From a virus, in IMG/VR virus record IMGVR_UViG_3300010224_000001, positions 1 to 64,000 of that record: 64,000 nucleotides of DNA. The stretch is one strand, 5' to 3'. The notes beneath the pieces were generated by a model. That model was not told where the DNA came from and searched no databases. It worked only from the letters and a program-made list of their open reading frames with translations. The translations under genes and the position numbers were made by a program. Shown one piece after another: positions 42,017 through 49,179 of this stretch; positions within the stretch are counted from its first letter, which is position 1, and every line of letters starts with the position of its first letter.

Positions 42017-42067
42017 TCATAGTTCCCACTACTCTCCAATGTACCGGAGAGTAGTGGGGTTATGACC
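42017..42067. terminator. Bidirectional hairpin
   Basis: CCCACTACTCTCC...GGAGAGTAGTGGG flanked by CATAG and TTATGACC. Confidence 0.8.
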
Positions 42068-44214
42068 TAGTAATAGTCCATTACTAGTTGACGAAGGTCT
42101 GTGTGATTGATATACACACCAAGAGTTTCAAGGATCAAATAGAACATCGCTGTCGCTTTGTGAATAATCTTGCGAATATTCATTGCCTGCATGATTTCAT
42201 CAGGAATACCTTGTGCTTTAACAATATTTGCCGGGATGAGTAACGTCGAAATATTATTCTTGTTAGTCTTCACCAGCCATTGTCGCATTGCGATTGCCAT
42301 CTCTTGATCTTGCAGCTGATCAAGCCATGCATTCATCTTAGCCTTGGTATCAAGTTCGACCGAAACAGTAATCACTCGATAAGGTGGTGGTAATGTTTGA
42401 CCGTAGCGCTTACCAAACACTTCATTCCAAAGACTATACTGCAAGTAGTTCGTTGCGTCAGCGCCTTGCTTATATGCTTCAGCAACGTTAATACGGCTAA
42501 TCTTCAAGAAGCGGAAATCACCAGTACGAATTGCGTGTTCAATTGATCGCTCAATATCAGCAACCTCTTTGGCTTTTTCCAAAGCACTCACTTTACCTGT
42601 TGTACGAATCTGGGTCATGATGTCCACCATCATGTTCTCAGCTTTCTGCACAATTTCTTTAGGCACGTTAGAGGACTTCAAGTGCACACCTTTAATCTCA
42701 GTCTTAAACTTAGAGTAAAGGTTACCTTCTTGCATGCTAATCTGAGCAAAGTAATGCTTACCCAGCTGTGTCAGAACGAATGCATCGAACTTATACTCGT
42801 TCTTCATCGAGATCTGGAAGCGACGATCTTTCTCAACACCAGCATTAGCTGACATCGTTCCCAACACGTGAATGATGGTTTGCGAAGTCAAGAAGATCAT
42901 CGCAGTCGATACAGCATTTGCCGTATCATTAAACACCACACCACCACAGTACCAATCCACCCACTCTTGGACCGTAAAGATGGTCGAGTCAGTATCAGAT
43001 GCTAACACTACACGTCGAATACTAAACGGCAGCATTGCAATCGATGCAGGAATGTTATCTGTTGCCCAGAAAGTTTGAACAATGTGAACGTAATCATTGA
43101 CGACGTTTGCAATGTTCTTTACGACAGTAGCCAGAATCGCATACTTCTCAGGCGCTTCTTTCTTGATATCATTCATGGTCTTACCCAGCATAAAGCTCGT
43201 GCAAATCTGCATCGCGAGCGAATGATACGCTTCAGGGTAAGTGTGGATCGTTTCATCAGGCGTAGGATCAGGCGTATCCACATACTGAATCAAACGAGTC
43301 ATGAACGTACGAGCAAACTGATCATTGAAGACACGTAAGTGATAGAAGTCACCTGTGTAAACAAAGGCTGCACGTTGCAATGGTTGCAGTCGCTCAACCA
43401 AATGACGCAGCTTGATCATGGACTTCGGATCAGTCCAGTAAAGCTTAGTCGAGTACTCGATGGTCTGCATGGTTTCATCCACAGTGGGATAATGCAGATT
43501 GTACAACGTCATCGTTTTCTCTAACCGCACATAGTCCGTGTGGTTGATAATTGAGATGATATTGTTGCGAGTAATATCAAGTGACCAATAATGTCGGTTA
43601 CCACTTAAGAACCGTTCGTTATTGGTATTACCATACGCTGCGGTTTGACGGCAGTTAGAAGTCAGTGTGCTGTGTGCAGTGCGGTTGTATAATGGGTTGT
43701 GGGCATTAACGTGTGCACCAGAGACAGCGTTGTTGGACAGCTTACGGCCAGTTTGTTCAGAGTGCTTAAACTTGTAGTTAAAACTATTCTTACCTTCTTC
43801 CATCTCAGCTTTGAACATCGCCTTCTTAGCGATCTTACGGCGATCCACGTTCCGCTGCTGGAAACCCACAAGTGGCGACTTCCGTATGTGGGCGCCGAGA
43901 TAGGTGGTAAAGGTTGGTGCAACAATATCTTGATTGACCTGGATTTCACGCAAGTATTCACTAAACGTGGAAACCTCAATACTGCGGTCACCCGTGTCAA
44001 TATGTCGTTCAAGGAAACTAACTTGTGGATCTTTAAATTCAAACTCGCCGCCTGGGCGAATCTTGTTTAAAACAAATTCCTTACAGAATTCTGGTGATTG
44101 TCCAGTCATAATGGATAGATGCGCGACTTGATCATCTAGCCAATGCTTCTGCATGTTGATATCTCGTTTATAGTGATCTTTGCTATAAAAGAAAGGATTA
44201 TCGTAAGCACCCAT
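42067..44214 (-). CDS. Split family-B DNA polymerase, palm/fingers subunit (phiKZ gp50-like)
   Basis: Motif B Q...KLSNNAVSG, LTSNCR, motif C SDTDS, KHYFA, EIKGVHL. Confidence 0.9.
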   Translation of the reverse strand: MGAYDNPFFYSKDHYKRDINMQKHWLDDQVAHLSIMTGQSPEFCKEFVLNKIRPGGEFEFKDPQVSFLERHIDTGDRSIEVSTFSEYLREIQVNQDIVAPTFTTYLGAHIRKSPLVGFQQRNVDRRKIAKKAMFKAEMEEGKNSFNYKFKHSEQTGRKLSNNAVSGAHVNAHNPLYNRTAHSTLTSNCRQTAAYGNTNNERFLSGNRHYWSLDITRNNIISIINHTDYVRLEKTMTLYNLHYPTVDETMQTIEYSTKLYWTDPKSMIKLRHLVERLQPLQRAAFVYTGDFYHLRVFNDQFARTFMTRLIQYVDTPDPTPDETIHTYPEAYHSLAMQICTSFMLGKTMNDIKKEAPEKYAILATVVKNIANVVNDYVHIVQTFWATDNIPASIAMLPFSIRRVVLASDTDSTIFTVQEWVDWYCGGVVFNDTANAVSTAMIFLTSQTIIHVLGTMSANAGVEKDRRFQISMKNEYKFDAFVLTQLGKHYFAQISMQEGNLYSKFKTEIKGVHLKSSNVPKEIVQKAENMMVDIMTQIRTTGKVSALEKAKEVADIERSIEHAIRTGDFRFLKISRINVAEAYKQGADATNYLQYSLWNEVFGKRYGQTLPPPYRVITVSVELDTKAKMNAWLDQLQDQEMAIAMRQWLVKTNKNNISTLLIPANIVKAQGIPDEIMQAMNIRKIIHKATAMFYLILETLGVYINHTDLRQLVMDYY

Positions 44215-44279
44215 TGTTCACTACTCCTTTTCGGTTCAAACTATAAAGGACAGTGATAAAAAAATCAAAAAAAAAAATG

Positions 44280-44328
44280 ACGTCATAAAAAAACCCGAGA
44301 AGACCACCCCGAAGGGCAGCCCTCTCGG
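44280..44328 (-). terminator. Intrinsic terminator with UUCG loop
   Basis: CCGAGAGGGCTGCCC-TTCG-GGGTGGTCTTCTCGG, then G-T7-ATGACGT. Confidence 0.85.
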
Positions 44329-44700
44329 AAAGTCCAACTTTTGGCGCTCCGCCAAAACAGATAGAGTAACAACCTCAATGCCTAGCAAGTAAACCACCTT
44401 GTACTAGTTTATCAATAGATCAACCCATGATTAGAAAGGAGGAAAGACTCATGAGGATCACACTTCAAGACTAGTTCAATTTCTTTTACTTACGCCGTGT
44501 CTCTGCTGGAAGTCACAGCAACTAGATATTTCAATTGTTACGCTATAGCGTTGATCCCGAAGGACCTCGACCTCAGTTCAACCATCGCGAATCTCCCTGA
44601 AGCTAACCCGGACCACGCCATGTCCGCACTGGCCATTGTATATGGAAGCTGAGTAAAAAAATCTTCAACTACCCGTATTCGGAATGACCGACCGAATTCT
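44287..44700 (-). ncRNA. Candidate structured non-coding RNA
   Basis: Gap of ~410 nt with no credible ORF; consecutive hairpins, G-U pairs and UUCG loops on the minus strand; ends at a terminator. Confidence 0.45.
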
Positions 44701-45114
44701 TTATACCGTAATTGTAGAGCCAGTTTTAACACGCATGTTAACTGCTTTGAAACCATTTGATGCGAGAGCATTACGGATCGCGAGTTGATCGCTTGCACTT
44801 ACATTTTCAATTTCAAATACAACCGTTGAACGTGTGACAAGTTCGACCGAATCATCAATGACCCATGGTCTGCCAATAACACGAGTTGCGCCAGAGACAG
44901 TGCGCAGCTTTAAGTAGCTATAGGCAGTAGGATCATCTGGAGTCGAAGCAGGAAGACGCGGATACACTTTGATGTGCATCGCACGAGTGTCAATGTAGCT
45001 TCGTGCTGTTTCTTCATCGAGAATTGCCAACACGACCACGTTCTGAAAATCATTGCCTATCTCAGCAACTGGATAGACGTTGAATGAGTAAGTGCTCTGT
45101 AATGCGAAGTCCAT
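44701..45114 (-). CDS. Conserved core beta-barrel-like protein (phiKZ gp49-like)
   Basis: 137 aa, AAGGGAG RBS; motifs HIKVYPRLP, DDPTAYSY and VIGRPWV. Confidence 0.7.
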   Translation of the reverse strand: MDFALQSTYSFNVYPVAEIGNDFQNVVVLAILDEETARSYIDTRAMHIKVYPRLPASTPDDPTAYSYLKLRTVSGATRVIGRPWVIDDSVELVTRSTVVFEIENVSASDQLAIRNALASNGFKAVNMRVKTGSTITV

Positions 45115-45133
45115 GTTCGGACACTCCCTTAAA

Positions 45134-45523
45134 TTAATTTTGGTATTGTTTCAGACAAACGTCGTTACCAATCATAATGTAAGGGAGATAATCCTTGTAT
45201 GTCAAACCACCCAGCGTGCCTGTGTCATCCATTCTCGTCTGGATCTGGACAAGAGCGGCATATGCAGCTTTATGGATGCGTACTTTAAACTCAGCAGGAA
45301 TAGCATCCATTGACGGATAGACCGTAAGAAACCTGAAACGACTTAAGTCAAGTATCTCACGGTCATACATGTCAATTGGGTTATTCACGTTTAAGATCTC
45401 GAATAACTGATGCAGTAATTCTAAAGCATCCCGATGATCTATCTGGACATTAATGGCTTGACTAAATATACTGATCAAGTCCGAAGTCGGGAAAATCACC
45501 TGGGGAGGACTGGACGGAAACAT
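45134..45523 (-). CDS. Hypothetical protein, paralog array member 7
   Basis: AAGGAG RBS before the ATG at 45523 (MFPSSPPQVIFPT). Confidence 0.7.
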   Translation of the reverse strand: MFPSSPPQVIFPTSDLISIFSQAINVQIDHRDALELLHQLFEILNVNNPIDMYDREILDLSRFRFLTVYPSMDAIPAEFKVRIHKAAYAALVQIQTRMDDTGTLGGLTYKDYLPYIMIGNDVCLKQYQN

Positions 45524-48565: not shown

Positions 48566-48631
48566 GACACCATCCCTTCATTTTACGCATACGATTATTG
48601 TGTTAAGTTTTTTTGTGCCTAAAAGCTACGA

Positions 48632-48695
48632 GGCGTCATAAAAAAAGAAGTCACCTACCTTTATTCTCTCACAGCAAGAAGATAAAGGTAGGTGA
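48632..48695 (-). terminator. Intrinsic terminator
   Basis: TCACCTACCTTTAT...ATAAAGGTAGGTGA stem, then CTTC-T7-ATGACGCC. Confidence 0.85.
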
Positions 48696-49179
48696 TACAT
48701 TCCAACCATTGGGTTCGACATGTTGATAAGGGTAGTCTCGAGCCTACTGACTTATCTAGTCTCTTCGCCAATGGTTGGGTGTACGTTTCACTATTGCTTA
48801 CTAGTCACTGCCGTAGTTACTAAAGGTCTACACAGCGTAGGCTGGAGTAACGAACCGGCTTACATAACTGTAAGAGAGATTACGGATAGTAATCTATTCA
48901 CCGACGTATCGGCTTGATTGAGTATTGTCAAAAAAGTTAGCTTACACATTCCCGAAACATGTGCCAACCATGCATCAATAACCTTACCGATGTCTTCTCA
49001 GACTGAGAATATACATCCATCGGGCAAAGATTGGGTATTACGATATCAATGGATGCTGCATCCAATACGAACAGGTCGTATTCGATCGGAGTGCAAACTC
49101 TGTCAAACAGAGCAGAGAGAGCTGCCATTTGACTAGCGAAACTCTCTCTGTATCCAAGACCAATGATGTGCAATGGATC
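48696..49179 (-). ncRNA. Candidate structured non-coding RNA or long 3' trailer of phuZ
   Basis: ~480 nt of densely packed inverted repeats between the phuZ stop codon and the terminator. Confidence 0.45.

What the first reader, a model, noticed from the sequence alone, without database searches (positions are those of the whole stretch)
44287..44700. Structured ncRNA candidate with an anti-Shine-Dalgarno loop upstream of the DNA polymerase gene
Seen: a ~410-nt gap in an otherwise tightly packed operon folds into serial hairpins on the minus strand. These are CTCAG...CTGAG enclosing GGAC/GTCC, GGTCC-UUCG-GGATC, ACGC-TATA-GCGT, TGCTG/CAGCA, TTTTGGCG/CGCCAAAA and a UUCG terminator. A ~110-nt interrupted rod (44385-44493) has G-U pairs that favour the minus strand, and its terminal loop exposes UUUCCUCCUUU (44435-44445), the complement of a perfect SD sequence and a near copy of the 16S 3' end. 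On the plus strand the same bases form a perfect RBS and a 7-codon minigene (MRITLQD*, 44451-44474). Inference: a trans-acting sRNA that pairs with ribosome-binding sites, for host shut-off or phage mRNA handling at the nucleus, or a minigene/antisense pair.
Basis: partly seen in the sequence, partly recalled or inferred. Interest (0 to 1): 0.72.

Follow-up and report, generated by a model that had tools for sequence, protein, structure and literature searches.

The report
Jumbo-phage RNA mirroring ribosome-binding sites
The gene-free stretch in front of the DNA polymerase gene of this giant phage encodes a folded non-coding RNA of about 370 bases, also found in related phages, whose exposed loop mirrors the ribosome-docking signal of about ten of the phage's own genes, so it probably controls their translation, though no transcript or target has been shown.

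Summary
Window 44215-44700 is a 486-nt ORF-poor gap between the SH3DP gene and the divergent family-B DNA polymerase gene of a 322.6-kb phiKZ-like phage. On the minus strand it reads: T-run promoter-like site, about 330 nt of stems, and the phage's own terminator type.

The same slot is 380-700 nt in 40 of 77 related loci. Burkholderia phage FLC9 has the element there. Ralstonia phages RP12 and FLC1-1B carry it one gene further upstream.

Compensatory changes support the fold in relatives: 27 of 51 rod pairs in one clade and 24 of 79 in another. G-U pairs fix the strand. No Rfam family matches.

The shared hallmark is a pyrimidine hairpin loop with a UUUCCU core. Exact CCUCC is not general (10 of 30).

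In ten genomes, each phage's RNA complements its own genes' ribosome-binding regions better than those of relatives (permutation p about 1e-4). Here 10 of 384 genes carry UAGAAAGGA.

My best reading is an anti-RBS riboregulator of the RNAIII kind (0.5). A mimic of the host 16S tail is the main rival. The antisense minigene is not conserved (3 of 25). No transcript evidence exists.

The scan met this family before in at least five other genomes.

The parts
44701..45114 (-). Upstream gene: 137-aa SH3DP protein (SH3-fold domain associated with phage DNA polymerases).
   Evidence: Pfam PF20287 E 4.3e-33 and phrog_3235.
44653..44663 (-). Promoter-like T-run GAUUUUUUUAC, proposed start of the RNA (inferred).
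   Evidence: Read. ATTTTTTTAC/T sites are few in the 322.6-kb genome and several lie just before genes. Relatives have a T-run plus TAC/TAT at the same end of the gap. phiKZ early promoters are AT/T-rich (passages of PMC8244752). No start site has been mapped.
44287..44655 (-). Proposed non-coding RNA of about 370 nt, running from the T-run to the end of the terminator U-run.
   Evidence: Fold. No Rfam match. No tRNA or tmRNA. Longest sense ORF in the gap is 53 aa, runs through the terminator, and no ribosome-binding site was looked for.
44572..44653 (-). 5' domain closed by CUCAG/CUGAG.
   Evidence: Clade B has a like-placed domain closed by CACAC/GUGUG that encloses two hairpins.
44553..44566 (-). 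Hairpin GGUCC-UUCG-GGAUC.
   Evidence: One low-depth contig variant (44565 C>T on the plus strand) turns G.U into A-U. The depth is below 5, so it may be an error.
44540..44551 (-). Hairpin ACGC-UAUA-GCGU.
44358..44545 (-). Long interrupted rod with a side hairpin (UGCUG...CAGCA).
   Evidence: MFE and centroid structures. Full-length but weak match to the covariance model of the clade-B rod: 10.8 bits, E 0.0057 in 3 kb.
44418..44459 (-). Apical hairpin GAUC-stem-loop-stem-UUGAUC.
   Evidence: The same GAUC...UUGAUC frame is invariant in clade B.
44431..44448 (-). Exposed 18-nt loop GUCUUUCCUCCUUUCUAA, the anti-RBS element.
   Evidence: Unpaired in MFE and centroid. All 10 gene starts with at least 10 nt of exact complement to the RNA match this loop. 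CCUCCUUUCU is also the 16S 3' tail of Caballeronia.
44339..44357 (-). Hairpin UUUUGGCG-GAG-CGCCAAAA.
44280..44329 (-). Terminator: a 16-pair UUCG hairpin, then U7 and AUGACGU.
   Evidence: TTTATG[AC]CGT occurs 23 times in the genome and, by eye, nearly always directly after a GC-rich inverted repeat. The same module ends the gap in relatives.
44255..44266 (-). Second T-run GAUUUUUUUAUC, the likely promoter of the DNA polymerase gene itself (inferred).
   Evidence: Relatives have a T-run plus TAT/TAC at this place.
44218..44256 (-). Leader hairpin of the DNA polymerase mRNA that pairs its own SD (AAGGAG, 44224-44229) with GUCCUUU.
   Evidence: MFE and centroid structures.
42067..44214 (-). Downstream gene: 715-aa divergent family-B DNA polymerase.
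   Evidence: Pfam PF20286 E 6.8e-235 and phrog_2927.

Best explanation
The gap holds an independent gene for a structured non-coding RNA of about 370 nt on the minus strand. It starts at a T-run promoter-like site and ends at the phage's own kind of terminator. It belongs to an undescribed family found just upstream of the DNA polymerase gene in one branch of phiKZ-like (nucleus-forming) jumbo phages.

The long rod presents an 18-nt pyrimidine loop, GUCUUUCCUCCUUUCUAA. I propose that this loop base-pairs with the purine-rich ribosome-binding region, signature (U)UAGAAAGGA(G), of about ten of the phage's own mRNAs. Pairing would keep 30S subunits off those mRNAs and so set the timing or level of their translation. 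This is the mode of action of Staphylococcus aureus RNAIII and other sRNAs with C-rich loops.

Shown here: the conserved slot, the conserved fold, the strand, the conserved loop motif, and complementarity specific to each phage's own genome. Inferred: transcription, pairing in the cell, and repression.
For: (1) The slot is conserved. The distance from the SH3DP stop to the DNA polymerase start is 380-700 nt in 40 of 77 loci, including this window. Most lack an ORF over 60 aa; for example L055 has 502 nt with a longest ORF of 25 aa. FLC9 has 536 nt with z -4.25. RP12 and FLC1-1B have the element one gene further upstream.

(2) The fold is conserved. In the clade-B rod, 93.0% of cells are paired against 79.6% in shuffles, and 27 of 51 pairs have changes on both sides. 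None of 500 shuffles reached this, and slid controls gave 29-47% paired with 7-10 such pairs. In clade A, 97.9% are paired and 24 of 79 pairs are compensatory, against 40-47% and 2-6 pairs when slid.

(3) The strand is fixed. There are 48 G-U cells against 5 A-C cells, and the terminator points the same way.

(4) The loop is conserved. UUUCCU occurs 17 times, in 14 of 30 representatives. Shuffles gave 4.4 +/- 2.0 occurrences and at most 11 representatives in any of 500 shuffles; equal lengths of DNA polymerase coding sequence gave 1. UCCUUU, UUCCUU and UUUCCU are the only shared words besides the T-runs, in 13-16 of 23 lineage groups. The tract sits in a terminal hairpin loop in 19 of 25 lineages.

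(5) Matching is specific to each phage's own genome. Counting gene starts with at least 10 nt of exact complement to the RNA, across ten genomes, the own-genome sum is 73 against 33 expected from cross pairs. Permutation p is 0.00016, and the backwards control gives 21 (p 0.86). For this window the count is 10 of 384, against 2 for the reversed control and 1-4 when this RNA is tested on nine other genomes.

(6) The signatures are lineage-specific. TAGAAAGGA-N3-10-ATG occurs 11 times in this genome (10 before genes) and 6 times in ten other genomes together.

(7) FLC9 separates the RNA from the ribosome. C precedes AAGGA in 52% of 102 gene starts. AACAAGGA is the top word, in 26 genes. This mirrors the loop UCCUUGUUU but not the Burkholderia-type 16S tail CCUCCUUUCC.
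Against: No transcript has been seen and no RNA run holds the stretch. The promoter is only a motif.

The own-genome enrichment is carried by seven of the ten genomes and is weak or absent in three. Counts against the reversed control are G002 2 vs 5, G006 3 vs 1 and G003 6 vs 3. The sense-strand controls show a small composition effect (p 0.03-0.04).

A test using only loop mirrors from 25 lineages as decoys on this genome's gene starts did not single out the window's own loop. It shared about eighth place for matches of 9 nt or more and fourth for 10 nt or more.

In this window the signature UAGAAAGGAG could simply be a long Shine-Dalgarno sequence for a host 16S tail of the CCUCCUUUCU(A) type. 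The host is unknown. RP12's loop equals the Ralstonia 16S tail UCCUUUAAG.

Homology of the window's RNA to relatives is weak at model level: 10.8 bits, ranked third behind two plain hairpins, and no cross-clade hits with default filters.

Gene starts were called by my own crude rule. The ten candidate target genes form no recognisable class: one is an RNA polymerase beta subunit and the rest are unknown.
Confidence: 0.5

Rival explanations
1. The RNA mimics the host 16S rRNA 3' tail. The loop copies the ribosome's anti-SD tail and acts globally. It would either titrate Shine-Dalgarno sites of all mRNAs (host shut-off) or act as a decoy for proteins or nucleases that recognise that tail. On this reading the 'signature' in phage genes is only an extended SD for the host ribosome.
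For: The window's loop holds CCUCCUUUCU, identical to the Caballeronia 16S end; 9 of these letters match Burkholderia and 8 match Ralstonia. RP12's loop UUCCUUUAAG matches the Ralstonia-specific tail CUCCUUUAAG in 9 of 10 letters, and RP12's top RBS words (TTAAAGGA, TAAAGGAA) fit both.
Against: In FLC9 and its clade the invariant loop is CCUUGUUU and the gene signature is AAACAAGGA. The Burkholderia-type tail (CCUCCUUUCC) has U where the loop has G, so the signature fits the RNA and not the ribosome. B. cenocepacia stands in here for B. glumae. Loops of clade C (UUUCCCCCUCUUUCC) and clade B (CUUUCCUCUCC, AUCCUUUUU) are not 16S-like. Exact CCUCC is not enriched.
Confidence: 0.2
2. The RNA is a protein sponge or scaffold. 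The pyrimidine loops, one to three per RNA, would bind a host or phage protein that prefers C/U-rich single strands, such as ribosomal protein S1, a cold-shock or KH-domain protein, Rho, or the neighbouring SH3-fold protein. This is analogous to CsrB/RsmZ binding CsrA.
For: Clades A and C show two or three pyrimidine loops per RNA. The loops are large (10-19 nt) and sit on long rods. The gene sits between two replication genes.
Against: A protein site should not change in step with the leaders of the phage's own genes, yet it does. No binding partner is indicated by any search. SH3DP is also present in phages that lack the RNA.
Confidence: 0.15
3. The element is a cis-acting leader or attenuator of the DNA polymerase gene. 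The structured stretch would be a long 5' leader whose terminator is read through under some condition.
For: It lies directly upstream of the polymerase gene in most lineages. In clade A, invariant segments of the RNA (CUCCU and UGUAACGACCUGUA) could pair with the polymerase SD and leader.
Against: A strong 16-pair terminator is followed by a second T-run like the one before the RNA. In RP12 and FLC1-1B another gene lies between the RNA and the polymerase gene. Duplex energies between the RNA and the polymerase leader are no better than for shuffled leaders in 37 lineages (z from -3.5 to +1.7, no trend). The clade-A pairs never vary, so they prove nothing.
Confidence: 0.06
4. The plus strand is what functions: a 7-codon minigene (MRITLQD*) behind a perfect RBS, with or without an antisense partner.
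For: AAAGGAGGAAA, then ATG and a stop, at 44435-44474. The plus strand has the same fold z-score.
Against: An ATG 4-11 nt after the antisense SD-like word occurs in 3 of 25 related hairpins, and the peptides are unrelated. The G-U bias favours the other strand by 48 to 5. All neighbouring genes and the terminator are on the minus strand.
Confidence: 0.02
5. There is no RNA function. The gap would be a spacer with a terminator and promoter, or the remains of a lost gene or intron.
For: The fold z-score of the single sequence is modest. Phages further off manage with shorter gaps: PA7 200 nt, Phabio 89, Goslar 298, RSL2 110.
Against: Compensatory changes occur in two clades, a loop motif is conserved, and length is conserved without a reading frame. 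There is no intron match in Rfam, and the polymerase gene has its own start and RBS.
Confidence: 0.04

Closest known systems
Staphylococcus aureus RNAIII (Rfam RF00503) and other sRNAs with C-rich loops (RsaE/RoxS type).
   Same: A large, many-hairpin regulatory RNA whose exposed C/U-rich hairpin loops pair with Shine-Dalgarno regions of several target mRNAs.
   Different: No sequence or structure match: nothing in Rfam reaches threshold. This RNA is phage-encoded, has no embedded peptide gene, occurs in phages of Gram-negative soil and plant bacteria, and its proposed targets are the phage's own genes. Neither pairing nor repression has been shown.
Small RNAs of phiKZ-like phages mapped by ONT-cappable-seq, such as 201phi2-1 sRNA005 and the phiKZ sRNA upstream of gp182 (PMC11512511, passages read).
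   Same: Non-coding RNAs of giant phages that are conserved by position and bounded by phage promoters and terminators.
   Different: Those were filtered to under 250 nt, are mostly 5'-UTR derived, and lie at another locus (a tail gene). PA7 (genus Phikzvirus) and Phabio, the nearest records fetched here, have only 200 and 89 nt in the polymerase slot. The supplementary sRNA tables could not be opened.
3' tail of 16S rRNA (the anti-Shine-Dalgarno sequence).
   Same: The loop contains CCUCCUUUCU, the same letters as the 16S end of Caballeronia. RP12's loop shares UCCUUUAAG with the Ralstonia 16S end.
   Different: The letters sit in a hairpin loop of a 370-nt phage RNA, not at a 3' end. Other lineages have loops that depart from any 16S tail read here.
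Large phage-associated structured RNAs of unknown function (GOLLD, ROOL).
   Same: Long, highly structured, ORF-free RNAs carried by phages and known only from comparative analysis.
   Different: No match to any Rfam family, and GOLLD and ROOL are, as I recall, in Rfam. This RNA is smaller, rod-like, and has a clear candidate pairing element.

Membership tests
Any Rfam 15 family (including RNAIII, 6S RNA, group I/II introns, GOLLD, ROOL, tmRNA, RNase P) | Score at or above the family's gathering threshold. | tested here: not met
   No matches in the 64-kb window. In E-value mode on 44100-44800 there were 6 chance-level matches, the best at E 0.22 and far below gathering. No matches in 16 related loci totalling 135 kb.
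Pre-DNA-polymerase structured RNA of phiKZ-like phages (undescribed; defined in this report) | An ORF-poor gap of about 380-700 nt just upstream of the divergent family-B DNA polymerase gene, after the SH3DP gene. | tested here: met
   The window has 486 nt. 40 of 77 loci fall in this range.
Pre-DNA-polymerase structured RNA of phiKZ-like phages (undescribed; defined in this report) | A T-run promoter-like start, and an end at a hairpin plus UUUAUG(A/C)CG terminator on the polymerase strand. | tested here: met
   The function of the T-run is inferred.
Pre-DNA-polymerase structured RNA of phiKZ-like phages (undescribed; defined in this report) | A long rod topped by a pyrimidine-rich terminal loop with a UUUCCU/UCCUUU core. 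| tested here: met
   Window loop GUCUUUCCUCCUUUCUAA. The tract is in a terminal loop in 19 of 25 lineages. Motif enrichment is shown.
Pre-DNA-polymerase structured RNA of phiKZ-like phages (undescribed; defined in this report) | Detectable homology of sequence and structure to other members (covariance model). | tested here: inconclusive
   The clade-B rod model aligns full-length to 44358-44545(-), placing GAUC, the loop and UUGAUC in register. The score is only 10.8 bits (E 0.0057 in 3 kb, 0.18 in 95 kb). Other clades are not found. The closest relatives (DNA polymerase 74% and 63% identical) could not be fetched.
Base-pairing anti-Shine-Dalgarno riboregulators (functional class) | An exposed single-stranded C/U-rich element. 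| tested here: met
   The loop is unpaired in both MFE and centroid structures.
Base-pairing anti-Shine-Dalgarno riboregulators (functional class) | Complementarity to ribosome-binding regions of particular mRNAs beyond the generic SD core. | tested here: inconclusive
   10 of 384 gene starts have at least 10 nt of complement, against 2 for the reversed control. The own-versus-cross permutation gives p 0.00016 over ten genomes. However, the loop-decoy test was not discriminating, and a host 16S tail could explain the signature in this phage.
Base-pairing anti-Shine-Dalgarno riboregulators (functional class) | Expressed as a discrete RNA, with an effect on target translation. | not testable with these tools
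   No RNA run holds the stretch.
Self-splicing intron between SH3DP and the DNA polymerase | An intron core fold, with exons that join into one reading frame. | tested here: not met
   No intron model matches even at E up to 10. SH3DP ends at a stop codon. The polymerase has its own AAGGAG and ATG, and alignments of relatives begin at residues 1-15 in most loci.

The most novel reading that the evidence does not exclude
One branch of nucleus-forming jumbo phages uses a 'private' ribosome-binding code. A set of 10-26 phage genes carries a lineage-specific leader word: UAGAAAGGA here, AAACAAGGA in FLC9 and UUAAAGGAAAG in RP12. That word would be read not only by the ribosome but also by a dedicated phage RNA whose loop imitates, and in FLC9 out-matches, the 16S rRNA tail. 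The RNA would then be a phage-made surrogate anti-Shine-Dalgarno. It could gate when this regulon is translated, or escort these mRNAs before they meet ribosomes outside the phage nucleus.
Probability: 0.25. Interest if true: 0.85.

Novelty: new variant of a known kind. Interest (0 to 1): 0.68.

Why it matters
Well-supported structured RNAs longer than 300 nt with no known family are rare, and almost nothing is known about RNA regulators in nucleus-forming jumbo phages. The 2026 review says only that phiKZ expresses non-coding RNAs (PMC13282480, one passage).

This element offers three things:
- a fold supported by compensatory changes;
- an obvious functional loop;
- a testable regulon, namely genes whose leaders mirror that loop.

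The family is present in the cultured phages FLC9, RP12 and FLC1-1B, so the idea can be tested at once. If the loop does compete with the ribosome's own tail for phage messages, it would be a new way for a virus to time its translation. It would also explain lineage-specific leader words such as AAACAAGGA in FLC9.

Tried and rejected
**Rfam and tRNA scans.** Nothing was found.

**Nucleotide search of the gap against 50,697 phage records.** No match.

**Covariance model R1 of the clade-B rod.**
- With default filters over 764 kb it found only its own six sequences.
- With filters off, most top hits were plain hairpins. The only long hits in a polymerase gap were the window (10.8 bits) and L048 (12.8 bits).
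- Cross-clade homology therefore rests on position, architecture and the loop motif, not on a model score.

**Is the DNA polymerase leader the target?** RNAduplex energies for 37 lineages were no better than for shuffled leaders. One search timed out and was repeated with fewer shuffles.

**Loop-only decoy test on this genome.** Not discriminating. The general RBS profile of this genome shows only A-rich flanks around AGGA.

**Antisense minigene.** Not conserved.

**Group I intron reading.** Rejected. The polymerase has its own start.

**'TTTTATGCCGTC is the polymerase promoter'.** This was my first idea. I rejected it because the word follows a hairpin almost everywhere in the genome, so it belongs to the terminator.

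**Sequencing runs.**
- No RNA holder was listed.
- Four laid runs gave only short contigs of 150-240 nt, mostly 99+% identical at low depth, plus an unrelated 36-nt piece.
- One run, guessed to be RNA (X7), has a single 185-nt contig at 44443-44627. This shows neither expression nor its absence.

**Functional class of the ten candidate target genes.** One is an RNA polymerase beta subunit (phrog_3015). Three match PHROGs of unknown function, six match nothing, and none matches Pfam.

**Literature.** Searches (listings only) found no description of this RNA. I read passages of PMC11512511, PMC8244752 and PMC13282480.

**Clade A control.** The 'further pair types' measure did not exceed shuffles (57 against 57.5; 339 of 500), so that clade has few independent lineages.
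Full report
**Where we are.** The window is the first 64 kb of a 322,570-bp virus record with direct terminal repeats. The genes around the finding lie on the minus strand:
- a 137-aa SH3DP protein (PF20287, E 4.3e-33) at 44701-45114;
- a 715-aa divergent family-B DNA polymerase (PF20286, E 6.8e-235) at 42067-44214;
- a phiKZ-type internal head protein nearby.

The phage is a distant member of the phiKZ-like, nucleus-forming jumbo phages. Its polymerase matches 306 phage records, and the best is Burkholderia phage FLC9 at 46.9% identity. The finding is the 486-nt gap between these two genes (44215-44700).

**The observation.** The plus strand reads a perfect SD followed by a 7-codon ORF.
- The last hairpin is a 16-pair stem followed by U7.
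- The whole gap folds at -150.6 kcal/mol with z -2.70, and 1 of 100 shuffles folds as well.
- The 360-nt core has z -2.46.
- The plus strand has the same z (-2.73) at a much weaker energy.

The single sequence therefore gives a modest signal and does not fix the strand. Rfam gives nothing at gathering thresholds in the window. With permissive settings on 44100-44800 the best E-value is 0.22. There is no tRNA or tmRNA.

**Relatives.** The gap has no nucleotide match among 50,697 phage records. A profile of 23 polymerases found 212 relatives in IMG/VR, and 80 loci were kept.
- In 77 loci with both genes, counting this window, the SH3DP-to-polymerase distance is 380-700 nt in 40. It is 150-379 nt in 19, under 150 in 5, and over 700 in 13, of which several hold an extra ORF of over 100 aa.
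- Most of the 380-700-nt gaps have no ORF over about 60 aa. Examples are L055 (502 nt, longest ORF 25 aa) and L030 (506 nt, 39 aa).
- FLC9 has a 536-nt gap there with z -4.25.
- Phages further off have short gaps: PA7 200 nt, Phabio 89, Goslar 298, RSL2 110.
- In RP12 and FLC1-1B the slot itself is short. A gap of 437 or 426 nt with the same features lies one gene further upstream.

**Ends of the element.** In every clade the gap ends with a GC-rich hairpin followed directly by UUUUAUG(C/A)CG(U).
- In this genome TTTATG[AC]CGT occurs 23 times. By eye it nearly always follows an inverted repeat directly. It is therefore the phage's terminator signature and not a promoter, as I first thought.
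- The gap begins with a T-run plus TAC/TAT: GAUUUUUUUAC here, UUUUUUAUCCG in clade B, UUUUUUUACUGGG in clade C.
- A second such T-run lies between the terminator and the polymerase gene.
- phiKZ early promoters are described as AT/T-rich (passages of PMC8244752).
- I infer two separate transcription units. No start site has been mapped.

**Conserved structure.** Three clades are alignable along the whole gap.
- *Clade B* (six sequences, the closest available to the window). RNAalifold finds 102 pairs, and 49 have a change on both sides. For its 190-nt rod, 93.0% of cells pair against 79.6% in shuffles. 27 of 51 pairs have compensatory changes, and none of 500 shuffles reaches any of the five measures. 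Sliding the partners by 1-3 columns gives 29-47% pairing and 7-10 such pairs.
- *Clade A* (nine sequences including FLC9, about three independent lineages). 97.9% pair and 24 of 79 pairs are compensatory, against 40-47% and 2-6 pairs when slid. One measure, further pair types, does not beat shuffles.
- *Clade C* (four sequences). 21 of 89 pairs have changes on both sides.
- *Strand.* In the clade-B rod, 48 cells are G-U and 5 are A-C. The structure is 93.0% paired on the polymerase strand and 78.7% on the other. The RNA is therefore on the window's minus strand.

**Does the window's RNA belong to this family?** A covariance model of the clade-B rod (R1) aligns full-length to 44358-44545(-). 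It puts GCG-AAGU, GAUC, the pyrimidine loop and UUGAUC in register. The score is only 10.8 bits, with E 0.0057 in 3 kb, and it ranks third behind two plain hairpins. In 95 kb the E-value is 0.18. With default filters the model finds no other clade. Membership therefore rests on the same slot, the same ends, the same order of parts (a 5' domain closed by a 5-bp stem, then a rod with a side hairpin, then an apical hairpin) and the loop motif. Homology at model level is not shown.

**The loop.** Apart from the T-runs, the only words shared widely among 23 lineage groups are UCCUUU (16 groups), UUCCUU (15) and UUUCCU (13).
- In 30 representatives (11.8 kb, excluding terminator and leader) UUUCCU occurs 17 times, in 14 representatives. 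Shuffles give 4.4 +/- 2.0, and equal lengths of polymerase coding sequence give 1.
- Exact CCUCC occurs in 10 of 30 against 6.7 in shuffles, so it is not enriched. GGAGG is depleted (5 against 11.5).
- The tract sits in a terminal hairpin loop in 19 of 25 lineages by a strict test on 77-nt windows.
- Clades A and C show two or three such loops per RNA.
But the conserved unit is a UUUCCU/UCCUUU pyrimidine loop rather than CCUCC itself.

**What the loop could pair with.** I fetched nine further genomes in 20-kb pieces and called genes with a simple rule. The commonest 8-mers before starts are lineage-specific and mirror the RNA:
- *FLC9:* AACAAGGA (26 genes), AAACAAGG (19), ACAAGGAG (16) and ACAAGGAA (16), against the loop GGGUUUCUUCCUUGUUUCCC.
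- *RP12:* TAAAGGAA (11), AAAGGAAA (10) and TTAAAGGA (9), against the loop UUUCUUUCCUUUAAG.
- *This phage:* AGAAAGGA (13), GAAAGGAG (10) and TAGAAAGG (9), against the loop CUCCUUUCUAAU.

Next I counted gene starts (-24 to -1) with at least 10 nt of exact complement to an RNA.
- The ten own-genome cells hold 10, 16, 10, 4, 2, 6, 6, 6, 3 and 10, a sum of 73. The mean cross cell is 3.34.
- Permuting RNAs among genomes gives p 0.00016. The complement read backwards gives 21 (p 0.86).
- The sense strand gives 20 (p 0.03), a small composition effect.
- Three genomes (G002, G003, G006) show little or nothing.

In this genome all 10 matches are to the apical loop. TAGAAAGGA-N3-10-ATG occurs 11 times here: 10 before genes on the minus strand, and once at the RNA gene's own antisense. 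It occurs 6 times in ten other genomes together, and the backwards control gives 0 here. The ten genes include an RNA polymerase beta subunit (phrog_3015) and the 815-aa gene upstream of phuZ. The rest are unknown. A cruder test, using only loop mirrors from 25 lineages as decoys on this genome, did not single out the own loop.

**Ribosome tail or private code?** I read 16S 3' ends from replicons in the plasmid collection:
- E. coli: CCUCCUUA
- Ralstonia: CCUCCUUUAAG
- Caballeronia: CCUCCUUUCUC
- Burkholderia cenocepacia: CCUCCUUUCCAG

The window's loop contains CCUCCUUUCU, identical to the Caballeronia end. RP12's loop shares UCCUUUAAG with its host genus. In these two phages the loop looks like a copy of the host 16S tail, and the gene signature could be a long SD.

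FLC9 breaks the tie. C precedes AAGGA in 52% of 102 gene starts, whereas A is commonest in the other five genomes tested. That C pairs with the G of the loop UCCUUGUUU. It faces a U in the Burkholderia-type tail, with B. cenocepacia used as a proxy for B. glumae. Clade B and C loops are also unlike any 16S tail read here.

I therefore favour pairing of the RNA with the phage's own leaders (0.5) over a pure 16S mimic (0.2). A protein sponge (0.15) cannot be excluded.

**Other readings.**
- *A cis leader of the polymerase gene is unlikely.* There is a strong terminator, a second T-run, an intervening gene in RP12 and FLC1-1B, and no excess complementarity to the polymerase leader in 37 lineages.
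- *The plus-strand minigene is not conserved* (3 of 25).
- *An intron is excluded* by Rfam and by the polymerase's own start.

**Expression.** No RNA run holds the stretch. Laid contigs were short, at low depth, and mostly near-identical to the window. Nothing can be said about transcription.

**Known or new?** Searches of the paper library found no description of this RNA (listings only).
- The 201phi2-1 study reports 11 sRNAs under 250 nt at other places (passages).
- The 2026 review says only that phiKZ expresses non-coding RNAs (one passage).
- Supplements were closed.
- The scan itself has met this family in at least five other genomes and came to a similar reading. That is not independent evidence. 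The one claim I reused was tested here.

I class it as a new variant of a known kind: an anti-SD riboregulator in principle, but a new family that is large, phage-encoded, and possibly tied to a lineage-specific leader code.

Noticed in passing
window 48600-49140 (-): A second ORF-poor stretch, behind phuZ, is even more strongly structured: 541 nt, -170.4 kcal/mol, z -6.20, and none of 100 shuffles folds as well. It ends in the same hairpin-U7-AUGACG terminator.
   Followed up: partly
whole genome G000, e.g. window 34897, 44289, 48643, 62982 (-): The phage's terminator signature is a GC-rich hairpin followed directly by TTTATG(A/C)CGT. It occurs at 23 sites in 322.6 kb, almost all after an inverted repeat. 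The same word ends the gap in distant relatives.
   Followed up: partly
window 44218-44256 (-): The DNA polymerase leader can fold into a local hairpin that pairs its own SD (AAGGAG) with GUCCUUU. This may be a translational operator of the polymerase gene, independent of the RNA.
   Followed up: no
FLC9 record (W01; L089-L105): FLC9 genes have an unusual leader word, AAACAAGGA. C precedes AAGGA in 52% of 102 gene starts, against A in five other genomes tested. ACAAGGAG-N3-10-ATG occurs 16 times, against 2-5 in four other phages. G005 (the genome of L021) shares this word.
   Followed up: partly
L001 and clade A alignment A4, columns 466-479 with 567-578: In clade A an invariant segment just before the terminator (UGUAACGACCUGUA) is complementary, over 12 pairs, to an invariant segment of the polymerase leader (UGUAGGUCGACA). 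Neither side varies, so this is untested.
   Followed up: no
clade B loci L005-L010, between rod and terminator; genome G001: Clade B keeps a single-stranded GUGAUAUCC(U/C)AAG segment. AGGATATC and AAGGATAT are among the commonest 8-mers before gene starts in G001 (7 genes each). This hints at a second anti-leader element outside the apical loop.
   Followed up: partly
L002 2004-2440 (RP12); L169 (Ralstonia 16S end): RP12's loop UUCCUUUAAG matches the Ralstonia-specific 16S 3' tail CUCCUUUAAG in 9 of 10 letters. This tail differs from those of E. coli, Caballeronia and Burkholderia.
   Followed up: partly
G000: 234692-235947 and 21 other stretches: 23 stretches of at least 250 nt are not covered by any ORF of 80 aa or more. 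The longest is 1256 nt. Some may hold further non-coding RNAs or small genes.
   Followed up: no
window 43700-45200 in runs X1, X5, X6, X7: Short contigs, mostly 99+% identical to this phage, occur in root and soil metagenome runs from four studies. The phage or a very close strain therefore recurs in plant-associated soils.
   Followed up: partly
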